In this document: positions 6,001 to 9,000 of the stretch, in pieces
Position numbering within the stretch: the first letter of the stretch is position 1
Layout of the letters: each line of letters opens with the position of its first letter
DNA from: a virus
Taxonomy: Duplodnaviria > Heunggongvirae > Uroviricota > Caudoviricetes
IMG/VR virus record: IMGVR_UViG_2531839474_000009
Reading direction: 5' to 3' (one strand)
Length of the DNA stretch: 52,953 nt
Position numbers: made by a program

Positions 6001-9000
6001 AAACCCTTCCATTTCGAAAACATTCATGCGCATTTGCGTAACTCCGATAACTCGTTAAAACGTTCCATAAACATCCCATAGGCATGGCCTGGCGACAGTG
6101 GAATAACTTTGAACATCTCTGTCGCCGGGATGCCTTCCAGTACAGGCCAGAAAGAGCCATCATCAAGCCCGAGATCGCGGCGTTCGGTTGCCAGCATGAT
6201 GAGATCGGCATATTTCACAGGCGTGCTCATAACCGGGGGTAACCCGTATTTCTCACGGATTACGGCGTCTATTTTTTCTTCCATCCGTTTATAGTCAGGA
6301 AGAAGGCGTTTTAGTGGCGCGGGGATGTCCTGGCAATATGCTTCTGTTGCATCATGCATTAACGCTTCAAAAGCAAATTCCTGCGGCACCAGCTGGCTGC
6401 AAAGCACCGCATGTTGGGCGACACTGTAGAAGTGAGAAAGATGACCGGCAAAGCGGCAGATATTTGAAAGGGAAACCGCGATATCGTTAATCACGATGTC
6501 GTCTTTATTTATCTTGTCATAATAAAAATGCTTCCCGGAAAAAGTTTTAATAAATGACATTTTGTTCTCCACGCATATGCGCTGCACCGCGCTGAGTTTG
6601 GGTAAAAGGAAGCCATCACCATCCGGTGATTATTGAGTTAATTACGTTTCCATAAATGCCCCCGCAGGGGCATTTGCAGTAATGAAATCAGGCGGTGAAA
6701 GTACCAATAAAGGTTTCTACTTTGCTGTCTTTGAATTTCTCAACAAGCAGATCACGAAATTCGTTAGCCATATCTTCCTGCACCGCTTCCAGCTGAATAA
6801 TGCGCAGAACCAGTACAGGACGATCGCCAGTGATAATGCTGAGGCGTAATTTAAACGGACGTTCTTTCAGACCTTCAAACGGAACGCATTTAAATTCAAA
6901 TGCCACAGGCATAATGTCTTTGGTCTTCGCTTCGACAGACTCCATCAGGGAGCGTTTGCCGCTGAAGTCATTATCTTCAAAATCAGCGGTCTGGTTTGCT
7001 TCAATCGTGATTTTACGGACAGCCGCAGCCGCTTTTGTTGCCTGAATGGCGTCACCATTAGCATCAAAGCCCACAAGGTAGTCGGCCCAGTCTTCAATCC
7101 ATTCTGCCAGTGACTTCTGGGAGTTACGCTCGCCATTAACAGACAACAGAGCAGAAAACGGTGCTGTCTTTTTTAGTTTGAGAGTGGCGGTGTTATCTGC
7201 GTGACCTGGTTCATCAATAGTACCCAGGTTAAGCACACTGACGGCACGCATATTATCGGCATCGATAAAGCAGCGGGTGCCTTCATCTGCAAGATCTTTA
7301 GAATAACGGGTAAAGTCATCGATGCTGGCAGTGGAAAGCGCACCACGGAAACGGAAGCGATTTAAATTAAATTTTTCCAGATCATGAATGCGGAAATTCT
7401 CAGGCAATGCCACAGCATCGGCACCAATCTTACTGATAATTTCATTAACACCCTGAGCAGAAATAAGGGCATGGATTTGATTAATTGCGGTTGCGTCTAA
7501 GTTCTGAGACATAATAAGTCCTCACTATATAAAGATATTCAGTGATGAGATAAATAATCAGTTAATTAAGAACGATATTAATGACCTGCTGCGCGGAGTT
7601 TTCCGTCAGGTTCACCGGCAAGAGTCAGTAATTGTCCCTGGTCTTCCTGCAGAATAGTCAGGCGACCACCGCGATTGACATACATCGGCGTTTCGGTGGT
7701 GTCTTCTTCGGAAATTTTCCCGCGGTTAGTCGGGCGAACATATGAGAGTTTGTGTTTTATTTTCACACGGTTCTCATCAAACGGTTCGATTTCCAGGTTG
7801 AGCGAGACCTTACCTTTGGTTTTCGTGTTCATCACACCGGAAGCGACTTCACTGAGAACAGCGCCGATTTTGGTTTCAAATACGCCGCCGTCCAGCTCCC
7901 CGATAAATGCCTGCACATCAGTACTGCGTTCGCTAGCCATTTTGCTGCTCCTCATCATATCGACCCTGCAAGGTCGGTTGGTTTCTCCACAAAACAGAGA
8001 AGAACACCTGCGGTGGCAGCCGCCCGGATGGATTGGGTTATGAGCCCGTCGTCCGGTGATGCTCTTCTCTGTTTTGTAAAAAGAGCGGTACCAGCCGGAA
8101 GCAAGTGTACAAACTGGTACCGCCAAAGCAGTGGCTGTTGTGGTGACCGGTGCTGATCTCCGGCTTGCGGTTATTTCAGACTCTCACGGGCGTTTAATTG
8201 CCCCGCCGAACAGCTCTTTTCCGCAATAGCTGCAATGTCTTTCGCGCATCAGCCTGCGCATTCACCACAACGCTGAGAGCACTTAGCCAGTTACGGCACC
8301 ACACTTTGTCGCGGTTACATAAATGCCCTCATCGTTGCACCCTGGTCTCTTCCCAGGTGTCAAACCGAACCGCCACGCTGGTTAGGCGTCTTATCAGCAT
8401 CATCATTGACTTGCACATTCCGGCTACCTGGTTTGTTTGCCCGAGCAAGGAGTGGATTGTCCCCTTTAACGTCCCCAGACCGCTAACGACGCATGTGCCA
8501 TACGCCGTGTTACAACCAAATTTTGTTTAATCTTGCCTGTGACATGTTTCTTTTAGATACATTATGTATCTCAAGGGTACATTGTCAAGTATAAAAAAAC
8601 CTGCCGAAGCAGGTTATAAATATTGATTAGGCCTTTATTTTGTATCTTCTTGGTTTTCCTGAGAAAATTACTGTACCAATTATAGAGCAATTACCGTTGA
8701 TCTTAATGTAAGGTTCAGGCCAGTTTGGGTTTAATGCTTTGAGGTAACGCTGTGTTCCATCTTCTATCAACCGCTTAAAGGTGGTTTCGCCTGTATCGTG
8801 CATCAATGCAATAACGTCGTCACCGTGGCAGGCAGGGACTTCAGGATCTACAAAAATCATGTCTCCCGGGCGGTACTCATCAATCATTGAATCACCAATC
8901 ACCCGCAAGATATAAGTCATTTCGCCACAGGGTACAGGGCAGGGATAAGTTTCTGCTGTGCTCAAATCAACCTCAGAATAGCCAACTTCTTTCCATGCTC

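What the first reader, a model, noticed from the sequence alone, without database searches (positions are those of the whole stretch)
7941..8590. Structured 600-nt leader downstream of pL with no recognisable N gene
Between the pL-like promoter and the first leftward gene (start 7940) there is no Arg-rich N-like ORF. Instead there is a terminator-like hairpin (10-bp GC-rich stem plus U-tract, 8071-8123) followed directly by a 15-bp perfect long-range stem (7989-8003 / 8063-8077) enclosing a 59-nt sub-structured loop. Perfect stems of this length are very unlikely by chance. Candidate functions are an RNase III processing site, as in the lambda N leader, or a cis-acting put-like antitermination RNA.
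Basis: inference. Interest (0 to 1): 0.6.

Follow-up and report, generated by a model that had tools for sequence, protein, structure and literature searches.

The report
tRNA-derived RNA modules in pL leader
The "empty" 600-base stretch after this prophage's early promoter is a chain of conserved folded RNAs, including a small-RNA terminator and a 20-25-bp stem capped by a mimic of the initiator-tRNA anticodon arm; this unannotated RNA family also occurs in phage P1 and in nearly half of complete E. coli genomes.

Summary
The promoter, the absence of an N-like gene, the hairpin plus U-tract (8123-8078) and the perfect 15-bp stem (8077-8063 / 8003-7989, 59-nt loop) are all present. The stem is the top inverted repeat of the window.

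The interpretation needs revision. The leader is a degenerate tRNA island, homologous piece by piece to the non-coding parts of phage P1's C1-controlled ban operon.

- **The hairpin** is the intrinsic terminator of a tRNA-derived cloverleaf RNA. A sister prophage with the same terminator scores 45.1 bits against Rfam STnc100 (threshold 47).
- **The 15-bp stem** is the core of a stalk with arms of about 20 nt in most related prophages. The arms co-vary, and G·U pairs outnumber A·C mismatches 51 to 6, so the RNA is on the yfdP-sense strand.
- **The stalk cap** is a covariation-supported three-way junction. Fourteen of its bases match the E. coli initiator-tRNA anticodon arm.
- **The same cap elsewhere:** it stands free, with an NCCA tail, directly after tRNA genes in Klebsiella phages, and occurs twice in P1 under the plp/upl annotations.

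No Rfam family or paper covers the cap. Homology to HK022 put is rejected. RNase III processing is plausible but untested, and the function of the cap is unknown.

The parts
8556..8588 (-). pL-type promoter (-35 TTGACA 8588-8583, -10 CATAAT 8566-8561) with a palindromic operator GATACATAATGTATC (8570-8556). The inferred transcription start is about 8554.
   Evidence: Consensus scan gives 11 of 12 matches. The promoter lies downstream of the cI-like repressor gene (8627-9301) and its terminator (8615-8598). The start site is inferred.
8344..8521 (-). Module A: structured segment with a 10-bp hairpin at 8508-8486 and CCUGG/CCAGG at about 8358-8342. It is homologous to the P1 segment that begins directly after tRNA-Ile2 (trnI) and runs towards ban.
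   Evidence: 79% identity over 186 nt to NC_005856 (L199 3169-3353). The alignment shows compensatory changes: CCUGG/CCAGG versus GCCGG/CCGGC.
8267..8338 (-). X1: first stalk module. A long stem (5' GCAACGAUGAGGGCAUUU, 3' AAGUGCUCUCAGCGUUGU) carries two apical hairpins, giving a Y shape. Its last 7 nt overlap the closing helix of the next module.
   Evidence: Fold. There is a weak hit of the cap model R1 at 8274-8331 (14.6 bits). The same stalk type (5' ACAACAGGUAAG / 3' CUUACCGUUGUG) recurs four times in the P1-like plasmid L198 and in L128, ST64B, L144 and L179.
8133..8273 (-). Cloverleaf module, tRNA-derived and STnc100-like. The closing helix GCGUUGUGGUG (8273-8263) pairs with CACCACAAC..GC (8145-8133). 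Inside are a D-arm-like hairpin GCGC-AGGCUGAU-GCGC, a long central arm, and the hairpin CCGG-AGAUCAGCA-CCGG.
   Evidence: Fold. It is 96-98.5% identical to a P1-like plasmid spacer after stalk 1. P1 has GUUGUGAUGA/UCAUCACAAC, a compensatory change. The sister locus L128, with the same ends and the same terminator, scores 45.1 bits on RF02076 STnc100 over the full model (alignment A6). At this position Phytobacter has an ARAGORN tRNA and Yersinia a tRNA-model hit of 40.3 bits. The window itself has no STnc100 hit.
8078..8123 (-). Intrinsic terminator of the cloverleaf/STnc100-like RNA: stem 8123-8114 / 8094-8085, 19-nt loop, U-tract UCUUUUU 8084-8078.
   Evidence: Sequence. 33 of 34 distinct homologous loci have a hairpin of at least 5 bp abutting T4-7 here, with different stem sequences. 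In L128 the 3' end of the STnc100 model aligns to this hairpin.
7984..8082 (-). X2: second stalk module. A possible extension pairs UUUUU (8082-8078) with GGAGA (7988-7984).
   Evidence: Fold z = -7.8. Top inverted repeat of the window. Stalk arms are 20 nt each in most related prophages. Covariation: 92% of cells paired versus 27-62% in slid controls, and 12 of 20 pairs changed on both sides. 51 G·U versus 6 A·C mismatches.
8009..8057 (-). tRNA-like cap of X2, a three-way junction. P2: CCGGACG 8056-8050 / CAUCCGG 8030-8024. Anticodon-arm mimic: GGG 8047-8045, loop CUCAUAA 8044-8038, CCC 8037-8035. P3: GCGG 8023-8020 / CCGC 8013-8010. Positions 8048-8035 (CGGGCUCAUAACCC) are identical to the E. 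coli initiator tRNA anticodon arm.
   Evidence: The covariance model R1 hit spans the cap plus the inner 10 bp of the stalk (7999-8067): 85.2 bits, E 2e-23. Covariation on 53 distinct sequences: 91% paired versus 34-48% slid, 16 of 24 pairs changed on both sides. The tRNA-fMet sequence was verified against annotated tRNA-Met genes. No tRNA call by ARAGORN or Rfam.
7941..7988 (-). Junction to yfdP: conserved GGAGAAAC (7988-7981), small hairpin CGACC-UUGCAG-GGUCG (7976-7961), Shine-Dalgarno GAGGAG (7953-7948), and ATG at 7940.
   Evidence: Sequence. GUG(U)GGAG(A/U)A and a small GC hairpin are conserved before the start codon in most yfdP loci.
7578..7940 (-). yfdP, the first gene of the leftward operon. 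Function unknown; PHROG 204.

Best explanation
**What it is (shown).** The stretch 8555-7941 is a tandem set of conserved, folded RNA modules transcribed from the repressor-controlled pL promoter. It is not a simple leader. The set amounts to a degenerate tRNA island.

In order, the modules are:
1. A segment homologous to the RNA that follows tRNA-Ile2 in phage P1.
2. A Y-shaped stalk module (X1).
3. A cloverleaf RNA closed by an acceptor-like helix. It is related to the prophage small-RNA family STnc100/PasD and ends at the intrinsic terminator 8123-8078.
4. A second stalk module (X2). Its cap is a three-way junction that copies the anticodon arm of initiator tRNA: three G-C pairs and a CUCAUAA loop.

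**How it most likely works (inferred).**
- On derepression, many pL transcripts stop at the terminator and yield the cloverleaf small RNA. Its 5' end would be made by cleavage at or next to the X1 stalk.
- Polymerases that read through transcribe X2. Its two-turn duplex is cut by RNase III, as in the lambda N leader and in rRNA and T7 processing stalks.
- That cut separates the small RNA from the yfdP mRNA, gives the mRNA a defined 5' end, and releases the tRNA-like cap as a small stable RNA.
- The cap is a portable module. In Klebsiella phages the same module is a free-standing gene directly after tRNA genes, with an acceptor-like stem and an NCCA tail, so tRNA-processing enzymes could release it there.
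- Its trans function is unknown. The invariant U33-CAU and the GGG:CCC stem point to a partner that recognises the initiator or CAU anticodon arm.
For: **Homology to P1**
- Window 8521-8344 is 79% identical to the P1 segment directly after trnI.
- Window 8284-8136 is 96% identical to the spacer after stalk 1 of a P1-like plasmid (98.5% for 8272-8136).
- P1's ban operon reads: C1 operator, dicF-like region, trnA, trnT, stalk modules, tciABC, trnI, ban.

**Terminator**
- Structure is conserved while sequence is not, in 33 of 34 distinct loci.
- In L128 it aligns to the terminator of the STnc100 model. The hit covers the full model at 45.1 bits against a gathering score of 47.

**tRNA origin of the cloverleaf**
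- Phytobacter has an ARAGORN tRNA, and Yersinia an Rfam tRNA hit (40.3 bits versus threshold 29), at the same position.
- Both use the conserved GUUGUGG../..CCACAAC strands as the acceptor stem.

**Stalk**
- Arms are 20 nt each in most related prophages; predicted stems are 15-24 bp, with a few shorter simple hairpins.
- 92% of cells are paired versus 27-62% in slid controls, and 12 of 20 pairs changed on both sides.
- 51 G·U pairs versus 6 A·C mismatches fix the RNA strand.

**Cap**
- 91% of cells are paired versus 34-48% slid, and 16 of 24 pairs changed on both sides across 53 sequences.
- 14 nt are identical to tRNA-fMet.
- Two copies occur in P1 proper, at E 1e-11 and 1.5e-7.
- Free-standing copies with an NCCA tail lie directly after tRNA-Arg, Asn or Thr genes in Klebsiella phages.
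- One viral contig carries both kinds.

**Not coding**
- Cap lengths of 69, 70, 71, 77, 82 and 94 nt break any reading frame.

**Other**
- No N-like protein is found.
- It is established knowledge, not tested here, that E. coli RNase III cleaves duplexes of about two helical turns.
Against: - No cleavage, transcript-end or expression data exist for this locus. RNase III processing and release of the cap are inference only.
- The window's own cloverleaf does not hit RF02076, even at E <= 10. The best relative is just below threshold.
- Some relatives (Yersinia L180, L183) have a plain 10-15-bp hairpin with no cap. Others (Buttiauxella, Kluyvera) lack the terminator and the stalk. The parts are therefore separable and none is indispensable.
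- How enough polymerase passes the terminator to express the operon is unexplained.
- In P1, CRISPRi knock-down across plp/upl, trnT, trnI and ban does not impair plaque formation (PMC10695390). Any function is therefore accessory.
- Position 37 of the mimic loop is U in some members, unlike real tRNAs.
Confidence: 0.6

Rival explanations
1. The X2 cap is the functional point. It would be a decoy or mimic of the initiator-tRNA anticodon arm, made during lytic growth. It would titrate or block a host or defence factor that recognises that arm, for example a VapC-type anticodon nuclease, MetRS, or the 30S P site with IF3. The stalk and terminator would serve only to express and release it.
For: - 14-nt identity to tRNA-fMet.
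- U33-C34-A35-U36 and the GGG:CCC stem are nearly invariant, while positions 32, 37 and 38 vary.
- The module moves between contexts: the pL leader, the late operon beside tRNA genes, and the P1 ban operon.
- It is non-essential in P1 under laboratory conditions, as accessory or anti-defence genes usually are.
- Enteric VapC toxins are known from the literature to cut tRNA-fMet in the anticodon arm. This was not tested here.
Against: - There is no direct evidence of any partner.
- One member (L166) has lost CAU altogether.
- Several members have only two G-C pairs in the stem.
- No co-occurring gene points to a specific target.
- Literature searches found no report.
Confidence: 0.15
2. X2 is a C4-like antisense RNA. 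Like the P1/P7 C4 RNA, it has a long stalk and two apical hairpins. It would be cut out of the leader of its own operon (by RNase P for C4), and its loops would pair with the yfdP translation-initiation region to gate the operon.
For: - It has the same topology as Rfam C4, a 17-bp stalk with two hairpins.
- The window holds a true C4 at 10645-10732.
- X2 lies directly upstream of the first gene.
- The loop CUCAU can pair with AUGAG near the yfdP ribosome-binding site in the window, and UAUGAGC in phiNP pairs with GCUCAUA.
Against: - The complementarity is only 5-7 nt, is largely explained by any AUG plus a serine codon, and does not co-vary. Loci with the loop CUCAUUC have no matching change near the start codon.
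- The P3 loop is hypervariable.
- The same cap sits in contexts without yfdP.
- There is no hit to RF01695.
Confidence: 0.1
3. Put-like processive antitermination RNA. The folded leader RNA would bind RNA polymerase and let it read through terminators without an N protein.
For: - There is no N gene, and a terminator stands in the leader.
- HK022 and HK639 show that lambdoid phages can use RNA for this purpose (PMC9378689; HK639 annotation).
- A short ACGGCG..CAUGCGUCG resemblance to put lies at 8508-8486.
Against: - BLAST finds no similarity to HK022 putL/putR or HK639 putL.
- The short motif recurs in only two other loci, both Kosakonia, of about 70 searched.
- X2 lies downstream of the terminator.
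- The modules are shared with P1's ban operon and with late operons next to tRNA genes, which fits RNA genes better than promoter-proximal polymerase modifiers.
- A put-like role for module A upstream of the terminator is not excluded.
Confidence: 0.06
4. A DNA-level or protein-coding feature. The inverted repeat would be a protein-binding or recombination site or a miniature transposon, or the region would encode the small 'hypothetical protein' that many records annotate (PHROG 33599; plp/upl in P1).
For: - The ORF 7955-8104 hits PHROG 33599.
- Many genomes annotate a hypothetical protein here.
- In Serratia symbiotica the cap is inverted between the arms (L195), as recombination between inverted repeats would produce.
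Against: - G·U pairs outnumber A·C mismatches 51 to 6 on one strand only.
- Substitutions are compensatory rather than synonymous.
- Cap length varies by non-multiples of three.
- No target-site duplication is visible.
- The L195 locus is a decaying prophage with a truncated yfdP.
Confidence: 0.04

Closest known systems
RNase III site in the lambda pL/N leader (also the lambda sib site, T7 early sites and rRNA processing stalks)
   Same: A long, nearly perfect duplex in an untranslated early-left leader, a few tens of nucleotides upstream of the first gene's ribosome-binding site. Its length is about two helical turns and is conserved across relatives.
   Different: - No sequence relationship.
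- No nut site or N gene.
- The stalk carries a conserved tRNA-like cap and directly follows an intrinsic terminator.
- Cleavage has not been shown.
STnc100 (Rfam RF02076) and the related PasD prophage small RNAs
   Same: - A multi-branched RNA closed by UGGUGA/CACCA and ending in an intrinsic terminator.
- Encoded in lambdoid prophages.
- A sister prophage with the same terminator and the same flanks scores 45.1 bits over the full model.
   Different: - The window's copy has a different interior, the P1 type, and gives no hit to the model.
- It lies in the pL leader rather than near Q and the lysis genes.
- A tRNA origin for the family was not found stated in the papers read.
Non-coding part of the phage P1 ban operon (trnA, trnT, the 'plp/upl' region, trnI)
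   Same: - Direct homology of 79-98% for two leader segments.
- The same stalk modules, two of them with the CAU-loop cap.
- The operon is likewise under the phage repressor.
   Different: - P1 keeps three canonical tRNA genes and four stalk modules, whereas the window has none of the tRNAs and two stalks.
- P1 records annotate the region as proteins on the opposite strand.
C4 antisense RNA of P1/P7 (RF01695)
   Same: A stalk of about 17-20 bp with two apical hairpins, embedded in the leader of a phage operon and excised from it.
   Different: - No hit to the model.
- No conserved complementarity to a downstream target.
- No CCA-like 3' flank in the window's copy.
HK022/HK639 put RNAs
   Same: An N-independent lambdoid phage with a structured RNA downstream of pL.
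   Different: - No sequence or structural similarity.
- X2 lies after the terminator.
- The modules also occur in non-promoter-proximal contexts.
tRNA mimics: bacterial Y-RNA-like YrlA, MALAT1 mascRNA, the thrS operator, the tmRNA tRNA-like domain
   Same: - Part of a tRNA is copied in another RNA.
- The free-standing Klebsiella form has an acceptor-like stem, a discriminator and CCA.
- It could be released by tRNA-processing enzymes, as mascRNA is.
   Different: - Only the anticodon arm is copied, and it is the initiator type.
- There is no D arm and no T-loop consensus.
- Neither the Rfam tRNA model nor ARAGORN recognises it.

Membership tests
HK022-type put antiterminator RNA | Sequence and two-stem structure related to HK022 putL/putR or HK639 putL | tested here: not met
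   BLAST of the leader against HK022 and HK639 gives only chance-level 11-23-nt matches, none in the put regions. The put sequences were read directly.
HK022-type put antiterminator RNA | Located upstream of the terminators it suppresses, close to the promoter | tested here: not met
   X2 (8082-7984) lies downstream of the terminator 8123-8078. The short put-like motif at 8508-8486 recurs in only two other loci, both Kosakonia.
Lambda-type N/nut antitermination | Arg-rich N protein encoded as the first pL gene | tested here: not met
   No antiterminator PHROG matches the leader ORFs or nine pL-operon ORFs. Only a Q-like protein is found, at 17059-17439.
Lambda-type N/nut antitermination | Single-stranded boxA (YGCUCUUUA) followed by a boxB hairpin | tested here: not met
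   UGCUCUUU occurs in the 3' stalk arm of many relatives, but there it is base-paired. In the window it is UGUUCUUC, and it is absent in the Serratia, Yersinia and Providencia stalks.
RNase III processing site | Duplex of about 20 bp or more (two helical turns) | tested here: met
   The stalk has 20 contiguous pairs (15 Watson-Crick plus G·U) and extends to about 25. Arms are 20 nt each in most relatives.
RNase III processing site | rnc-dependent cleavage in vivo or in vitro | not testable with these tools
   No transcript-end data are available. E. coli K-12 lacks the element, so published K-12 RNase III maps do not cover it.
tRNA | Cloverleaf recognised by ARAGORN or Rfam RF00005 | tested here: not met
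   ARAGORN finds no tRNA in the window. There is no RF00005 hit at E <= 10 for the window's cap or for the Klebsiella free-standing form.
tRNA | Anticodon arm: 7-nt loop with U33 and an anticodon | tested here: met
   GGG-CUCAUAA-CCC is identical over 14 nt to E. coli tRNA-fMet. This is only one arm, so it shows mimicry or descent, not membership.
STnc100 (RF02076) | Score at or above the gathering threshold of 47 bits | tested here: not met
   The window gives no hit at E <= 10. Sister locus L128 scores 45.1 bits, ST64B 35.1, L133 36.9 and the P1-like plasmid 39.2.
STnc100 (RF02076) | Architecture: closing helix UGGUGA/CACCA, internal hairpins, 3' intrinsic terminator | tested here: met
   Fold of 8275-8130. 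The alignment with L128 and ST64B shows shared 5' and 3' ends and, with L128, the same terminator.
C4 antisense RNA (RF01695) | Match to the covariance model | tested here: not met
   The only C4 hit in the window is at 10645-10732. Nothing is found in 7500-9000.

The most novel reading that the evidence does not exclude
Enterobacterial temperate phages, including P1, Stx2c phages, SfV, ST64B and Klebsiella lambdoids, carry a previously unrecognised, portable RNA gene. It is a D-arm-less mimic of the initiator-tRNA anticodon arm, delivered either on an RNase III-type stalk or as an NCCA-tailed mini-tRNA. During lytic growth it would act as a decoy for, or hijacker of, a factor that reads the initiator anticodon arm: a tRNA-fMet-cleaving toxin, MetRS, or the 30S P site with IF3. 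More broadly, STnc100/PasD-type prophage small RNAs and these stalk modules would all be products of the decay and re-use of phage tRNA islands.
Probability: 0.2. Interest if true: 0.85.

Novelty: new variant of a known kind. Interest (0 to 1): 0.62.

Why it matters
**A common unannotated RNA family.**
- The stalk-plus-cap element is present in 2,490 of 5,426 complete E. coli genomes. It is also in Stx2c- and Stx2a-converting phages, Shigella serotype-converting phages, Salmonella ST64B and phage P1.
- It is annotated nowhere as RNA. It is repeatedly mis-called as a hypothetical protein: PHROG 33599, and probably P1 plp/upl.
- Recognising it would correct annotation.

**Testable leads.**
- It gives a concrete origin, decayed tRNA islands, for a family of prophage small RNAs (STnc100/PasD) whose function is still unknown.
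- It offers a candidate for a new kind of phage tRNA mimicry aimed at the initiator anticodon arm.

**An open question made sharper.**
- How do N-less lambdoid phages of the ST64B, SfV and mEp460 type express their leftward operon past a conserved terminator?

Tried and rejected
- **Rfam at gathering and permissive thresholds** on the leader, on the Klebsiella form and on the P1 array. Nothing covers the stalk or the cap. The window's late region also gave no STnc100-like hit.
- **ARAGORN** on the window and 60+ loci. It calls a tRNA in the leader only in Phytobacter.
- **put homology.** Rejected.
- **boxA/boxC reading of the 3' stalk arm** (UGCUCUUU...UGUGUGG resembles rrn boxA and boxC). Rejected because the sequence is base-paired, degenerate in the window, and absent from Serratia, Yersinia and Providencia.
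- **A small ORF after the conserved GGAG, or a mini-ORF in the stalk flank.** No conserved start codon or frame.
- **Pairing of the CAU loop with the yfdP start region.** Only 5-7 nt, with no covariation.
- **An internal promoter between the terminator and yfdP.** None was found by the consensus scan or by eye.
- **attP or tRNA 3'-half explanation for the tRNA-fMet identity.** Rejected because only the anticodon arm matches.
- **A true phage tRNA (Met or Ile2) as a close relative of the free-standing cap.** BLAST finds none.
- **Literature searches** for the sequence, yfdP, tRNA-like decoys, ST64B small RNAs and P1 plp/upl. None describes the element. The P1 genome paper and the HK639 paper are not held.

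
Full report
**1.

On the minus strand, a cI/LexA-type repressor gene (8627-9301) ends in a terminator (8615-8598). It is followed by a near-consensus promoter, TTGACA-16-CATAAT (8588-8561), whose -10 hexamer is overlapped by a perfect 15-bp palindrome.

The first leftward gene, yfdP, starts at 7940. The short ORFs in between give no PHROG hit, apart from a family built on this same RNA region. None of the nine downstream operon products tested matches an antiterminator family. The only antiterminator found in the window is a Q-like protein at 17059-17439.

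- **Hairpin:** 8123-8114 / 8094-8085, followed by UCUUUUU.
- **Perfect 15-bp stem:** 8077-8063 / 8003-7989, enclosing 59 nt, exactly as described.

With G·U pairs the stem is 20 bp, and it can reach about 25 bp by pairing the U-tract with GGAGA. It is the top inverted repeat of the window and folds with z = -7.8.

**2. The stem is a conserved RNA stalk, and the hairpin before it is a real terminator**

I collected 68 yfdP loci from one genome per species, 120 viral contigs and several annotated phages. Across Escherichia, Shigella, Salmonella, Citrobacter, Enterobacter, Kosakonia, Serratia, Yersinia, Providencia, Morganella and other genera the same order recurs:

1. a GC-rich hairpin plus T4-7;
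2. a long hairpin;
3. GUG(U)GGAG(A/U)A;
4. a small GC hairpin;
5. the Shine-Dalgarno sequence and the ATG.

Evidence for the stalk and the terminator:

- The stalk arms are 20 nt each in most taxa, although their sequences differ widely.
- On an alignment of the arms, with the caps replaced by a GAAA linker, 92% of cells pair. Slid controls give 27-62%. Twelve of 20 pairs change on both sides.
- In 34 distinct stalks there are 51 G·U pairs and only 6 A·C mismatches. Selection therefore acts on RNA of the yfdP-sense strand, not on DNA.
- 33 of the 34 are preceded by a hairpin of at least 5 bp abutting the T-tract, with unrelated stem sequences.

**3. The 59-nt 'loop' is a tRNA-like cap**

It folds as a three-way junction.

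- **P2** (CCGGACG / CAUCCGG) carries GGG-CUCAUAA-CCC.
- **P3** is a short, hypervariable hairpin.

CGGGCUCAUAACCC (8048-8035) is identical to the anticodon arm of E. coli initiator tRNA. I checked that sequence against the annotated tRNA-Met genes present four times per genome.

A covariance model built from 16 diverse copies finds one copy in the window, at 85 bits. It also finds copies in about 40 of the yfdP loci. On 53 distinct sequences, 91% of cells pair against 34-48% in slid controls, and 16 of 24 pairs change on both sides.

The invariant core is ACGGG-N-UCAU-NN-CCCAAUC. Cap lengths of 69, 70, 71, 77, 82 and 94 nt exclude a coding frame. This explains away PHROG 33599 and the 'hypothetical protein' annotations.

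Neither ARAGORN nor the Rfam tRNA model accepts the cap.

**4. The cap is portable**

- **Klebsiella lambdoid phages.** It stands free downstream of Q, six bases after the 3' end of tRNA-Arg, Asn or Thr. It has the outer stem GGCCUG/CAGGCC followed by A/G-CCA in most variants.
- **Pantoea phage PA-1.** It caps a stalk after a terminator in the late region.
- **One viral contig** has both a pL-leader copy and a late-region copy.
- **Serratia symbiotica.** The cap is inverted between the arms.
- **Serratia, Yersinia, Providencia.** The same stalk carries unrelated caps, or none.

**5. The whole leader is homologous to the tRNA and ncRNA island of phage P1**

In a P1-like plasmid, tRNA-Asn and tRNA-Thr are followed by four stalk modules. 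Each has the form 5' ACAACAGGUAAG.. / ..CUUACCGUUGUG and is followed by (A/G)UGAAUGCG.

- One cap has a canonical T-arm (GGGUUCGAAUCCC).
- Two caps have the CAU-loop arm. They are also detected in P1 proper, at E 1e-11 and 1.5e-7.

P1 annotates this region as the coding sequences plp and upl on the opposite strand. It lies inside the C1-repressed ban operon, which also holds a dicF-like region and tRNA-Ile2.

Matches to the window:

- Window 8284-8136 is 96% identical to the spacer after stalk 1 of the P1-like plasmid.
- Window 8521-8344 is 79% identical to the P1 segment that starts right after tRNA-Ile2, with compensatory changes.

The window has a first stalk module, X1, at 8338-8267.

**6. 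The terminator belongs to a tRNA-derived, STnc100-like small RNA**

Between X1 and the terminator, GCGUUGUGGUG (8273-8263) pairs with CACCACAAC (8145-8136), closing a multi-branched fold. P1 has the compensatory version GUGAUGA/UCAUCAC.

In the sister prophage L128, which has the same flanks and the same terminator, Rfam STnc100 aligns over its full length at 45.1 bits (threshold 47). The alignment ends on this terminator. ST64B, Buttiauxella (L133) and the P1-like plasmid give weaker partial hits.

At the same position:

- Phytobacter has an ARAGORN tRNA whose acceptor stem is UUGUGGCG/CGCCGCAA.
- Yersinia has an RNA that passes the Rfam tRNA threshold, with canonical D and T arms and the acceptor stem UGUGGUA/UACUACA.

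The conserved GUUGUGG and CCACAAC motifs are therefore the two strands of a tRNA acceptor stem. The stalk modules sit immediately 5' of these tRNA-like units.

STnc100 and its relative PasD are prophage small RNAs of unknown function; PasD was found among Hfq-bound RNAs (bioRxiv 10.64898/2026.05.13.724894; PMC12370729). The window's own copy does not reach any Rfam score, so I file it as STnc100-like, not as a member.

**7. Mechanism**

*Shown:* modular, conserved RNA structures, a conserved terminator, and a conserved two-turn duplex with a tRNA-like cap.

*Inferred:*

1. Many pL transcripts end at 8078-8084 and give the cloverleaf small RNA.
2. Read-through transcripts form the X2 duplex.
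3. RNase III cuts that duplex, as it does the lambda N leader, T7 early sites and rRNA stalks (established knowledge).
4. The cut uncouples the small RNA from the yfdP mRNA and releases the cap.

In the Klebsiella form, tRNA-processing enzymes could do the same job. I found no transcript data. E. coli K-12 lacks the element.

In P1, CRISPRi across this region does not reduce plaque formation (PMC10695390). The function is therefore accessory.

**8. What the cap does is open**

The pattern of conservation points to a partner that reads the initiator or CAU anticodon arm. U33-CAU and the three G-C pairs are kept, while positions 32, 37 and 38 are free. Candidates, from general knowledge only, are tRNA-fMet-cleaving VapC toxins, MetRS, and the 30S P site with IF3. 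None was testable here.

**9. Comparison and novelty**

- put homology and N/nut membership are rejected.
- tRNA, STnc100 and C4 membership fail their model tests, although architecture or descent is shared.
- RNase III-site status meets the structural criterion only.
- The stalk-plus-cap family has no Rfam model, and I found no paper describing it.
- It is present in 46% of complete E. coli genomes.

I rate it a new variant of known kinds: tRNA mimicry, processing stalks, and prophage small RNAs.

Noticed in passing
window 10544-10732 (+): isrK (63.7 bits) and C4 antisense RNA (82.8 bits) lie side by side in the rightward early region, inside a mechanical 278-aa ORF (10184-11020) that is therefore probably not a gene. 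This suggests a P1/Gifsy-type immI antirepressor control in this lambdoid prophage.
   Followed up: partly
window 12335-12451 (+), 33503-33619 (-), 50258-50374 (-): Three identical ALIL frameshift pseudoknots (120.9 bits each) indicate three copies of one IS3-family insertion sequence inside the prophage window.
   Followed up: no
L199 (phage P1 NC_005856) 1631-2200: The P1 coding sequences plp and upl lie on the strand opposite to four conserved stalk RNA modules, two of which are significant hits to the cap model. These protein annotations may be spurious. CRISPRi scored both as non-essential (PMC10695390).
   Followed up: partly
window 7955-8104 (-): PHROG 33599 (62 aa, unknown function) matches an ORF that runs across the terminator and the tRNA-like cap. 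This protein family appears to be built on mis-called RNA.
   Followed up: partly
L195 (Serratia symbiotica) 2334-2423: The tRNA-like cap is inverted relative to its stalk (GGGUUAUGAGCCC), as if flipped by recombination between the 20-nt arms. The adjacent yfdP is truncated.
   Followed up: partly
L131, L161, L163, L167, ST64B and other loci: loop of the terminator upstream of the stalk: In many relatives, though not in the window, the terminator hairpin holds a conserved insert: UCUUCAAC..CAACACCAGGAGGA..GAAGAUAAUGUUCU. It has a Shine-Dalgarno-like GGAGG and an AUG-UUC start. The reading frame after it is not conserved, and its meaning is unknown.
   Followed up: no
L179 (Yersinia massiliensis) 2169-2296: A tRNA-like RNA in the pL leader has canonical D and T arms and an insertion of about 60 nt that itself contains GGUUCAUAACCCAGAUU, the CAU-loop motif of the cap. 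The X1-type stalk upstream carries two T-arm-like hairpins.
   Followed up: partly
stalks of all loci: The stalk arms show strong strand asymmetry. The 5' arm is A/C-rich and the 3' arm G/U-rich: 292 A-U pairs have A on the 5' side, against 14 the other way. Half of the stalks keep a 1x1 mismatch (C·U or C·C) near their centre. Neither feature is explained.
   Followed up: no
window 8273-8267: The last 7 nt of the X1 stalk's 3' arm are also the first 7 nt of the cloverleaf closing helix, so the two helices compete for GCGUUGU. The same overlap (GUUG) occurs where a true tRNA follows the stalk in Phytobacter (L144).
   Followed up: no
L099 6057-6127 and 14611-14685: One viral contig carries both a stalk-borne cap, as in the pL-leader type (84 bits), and a free-standing copy of the Klebsiella type (43 bits).
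   Followed up: no
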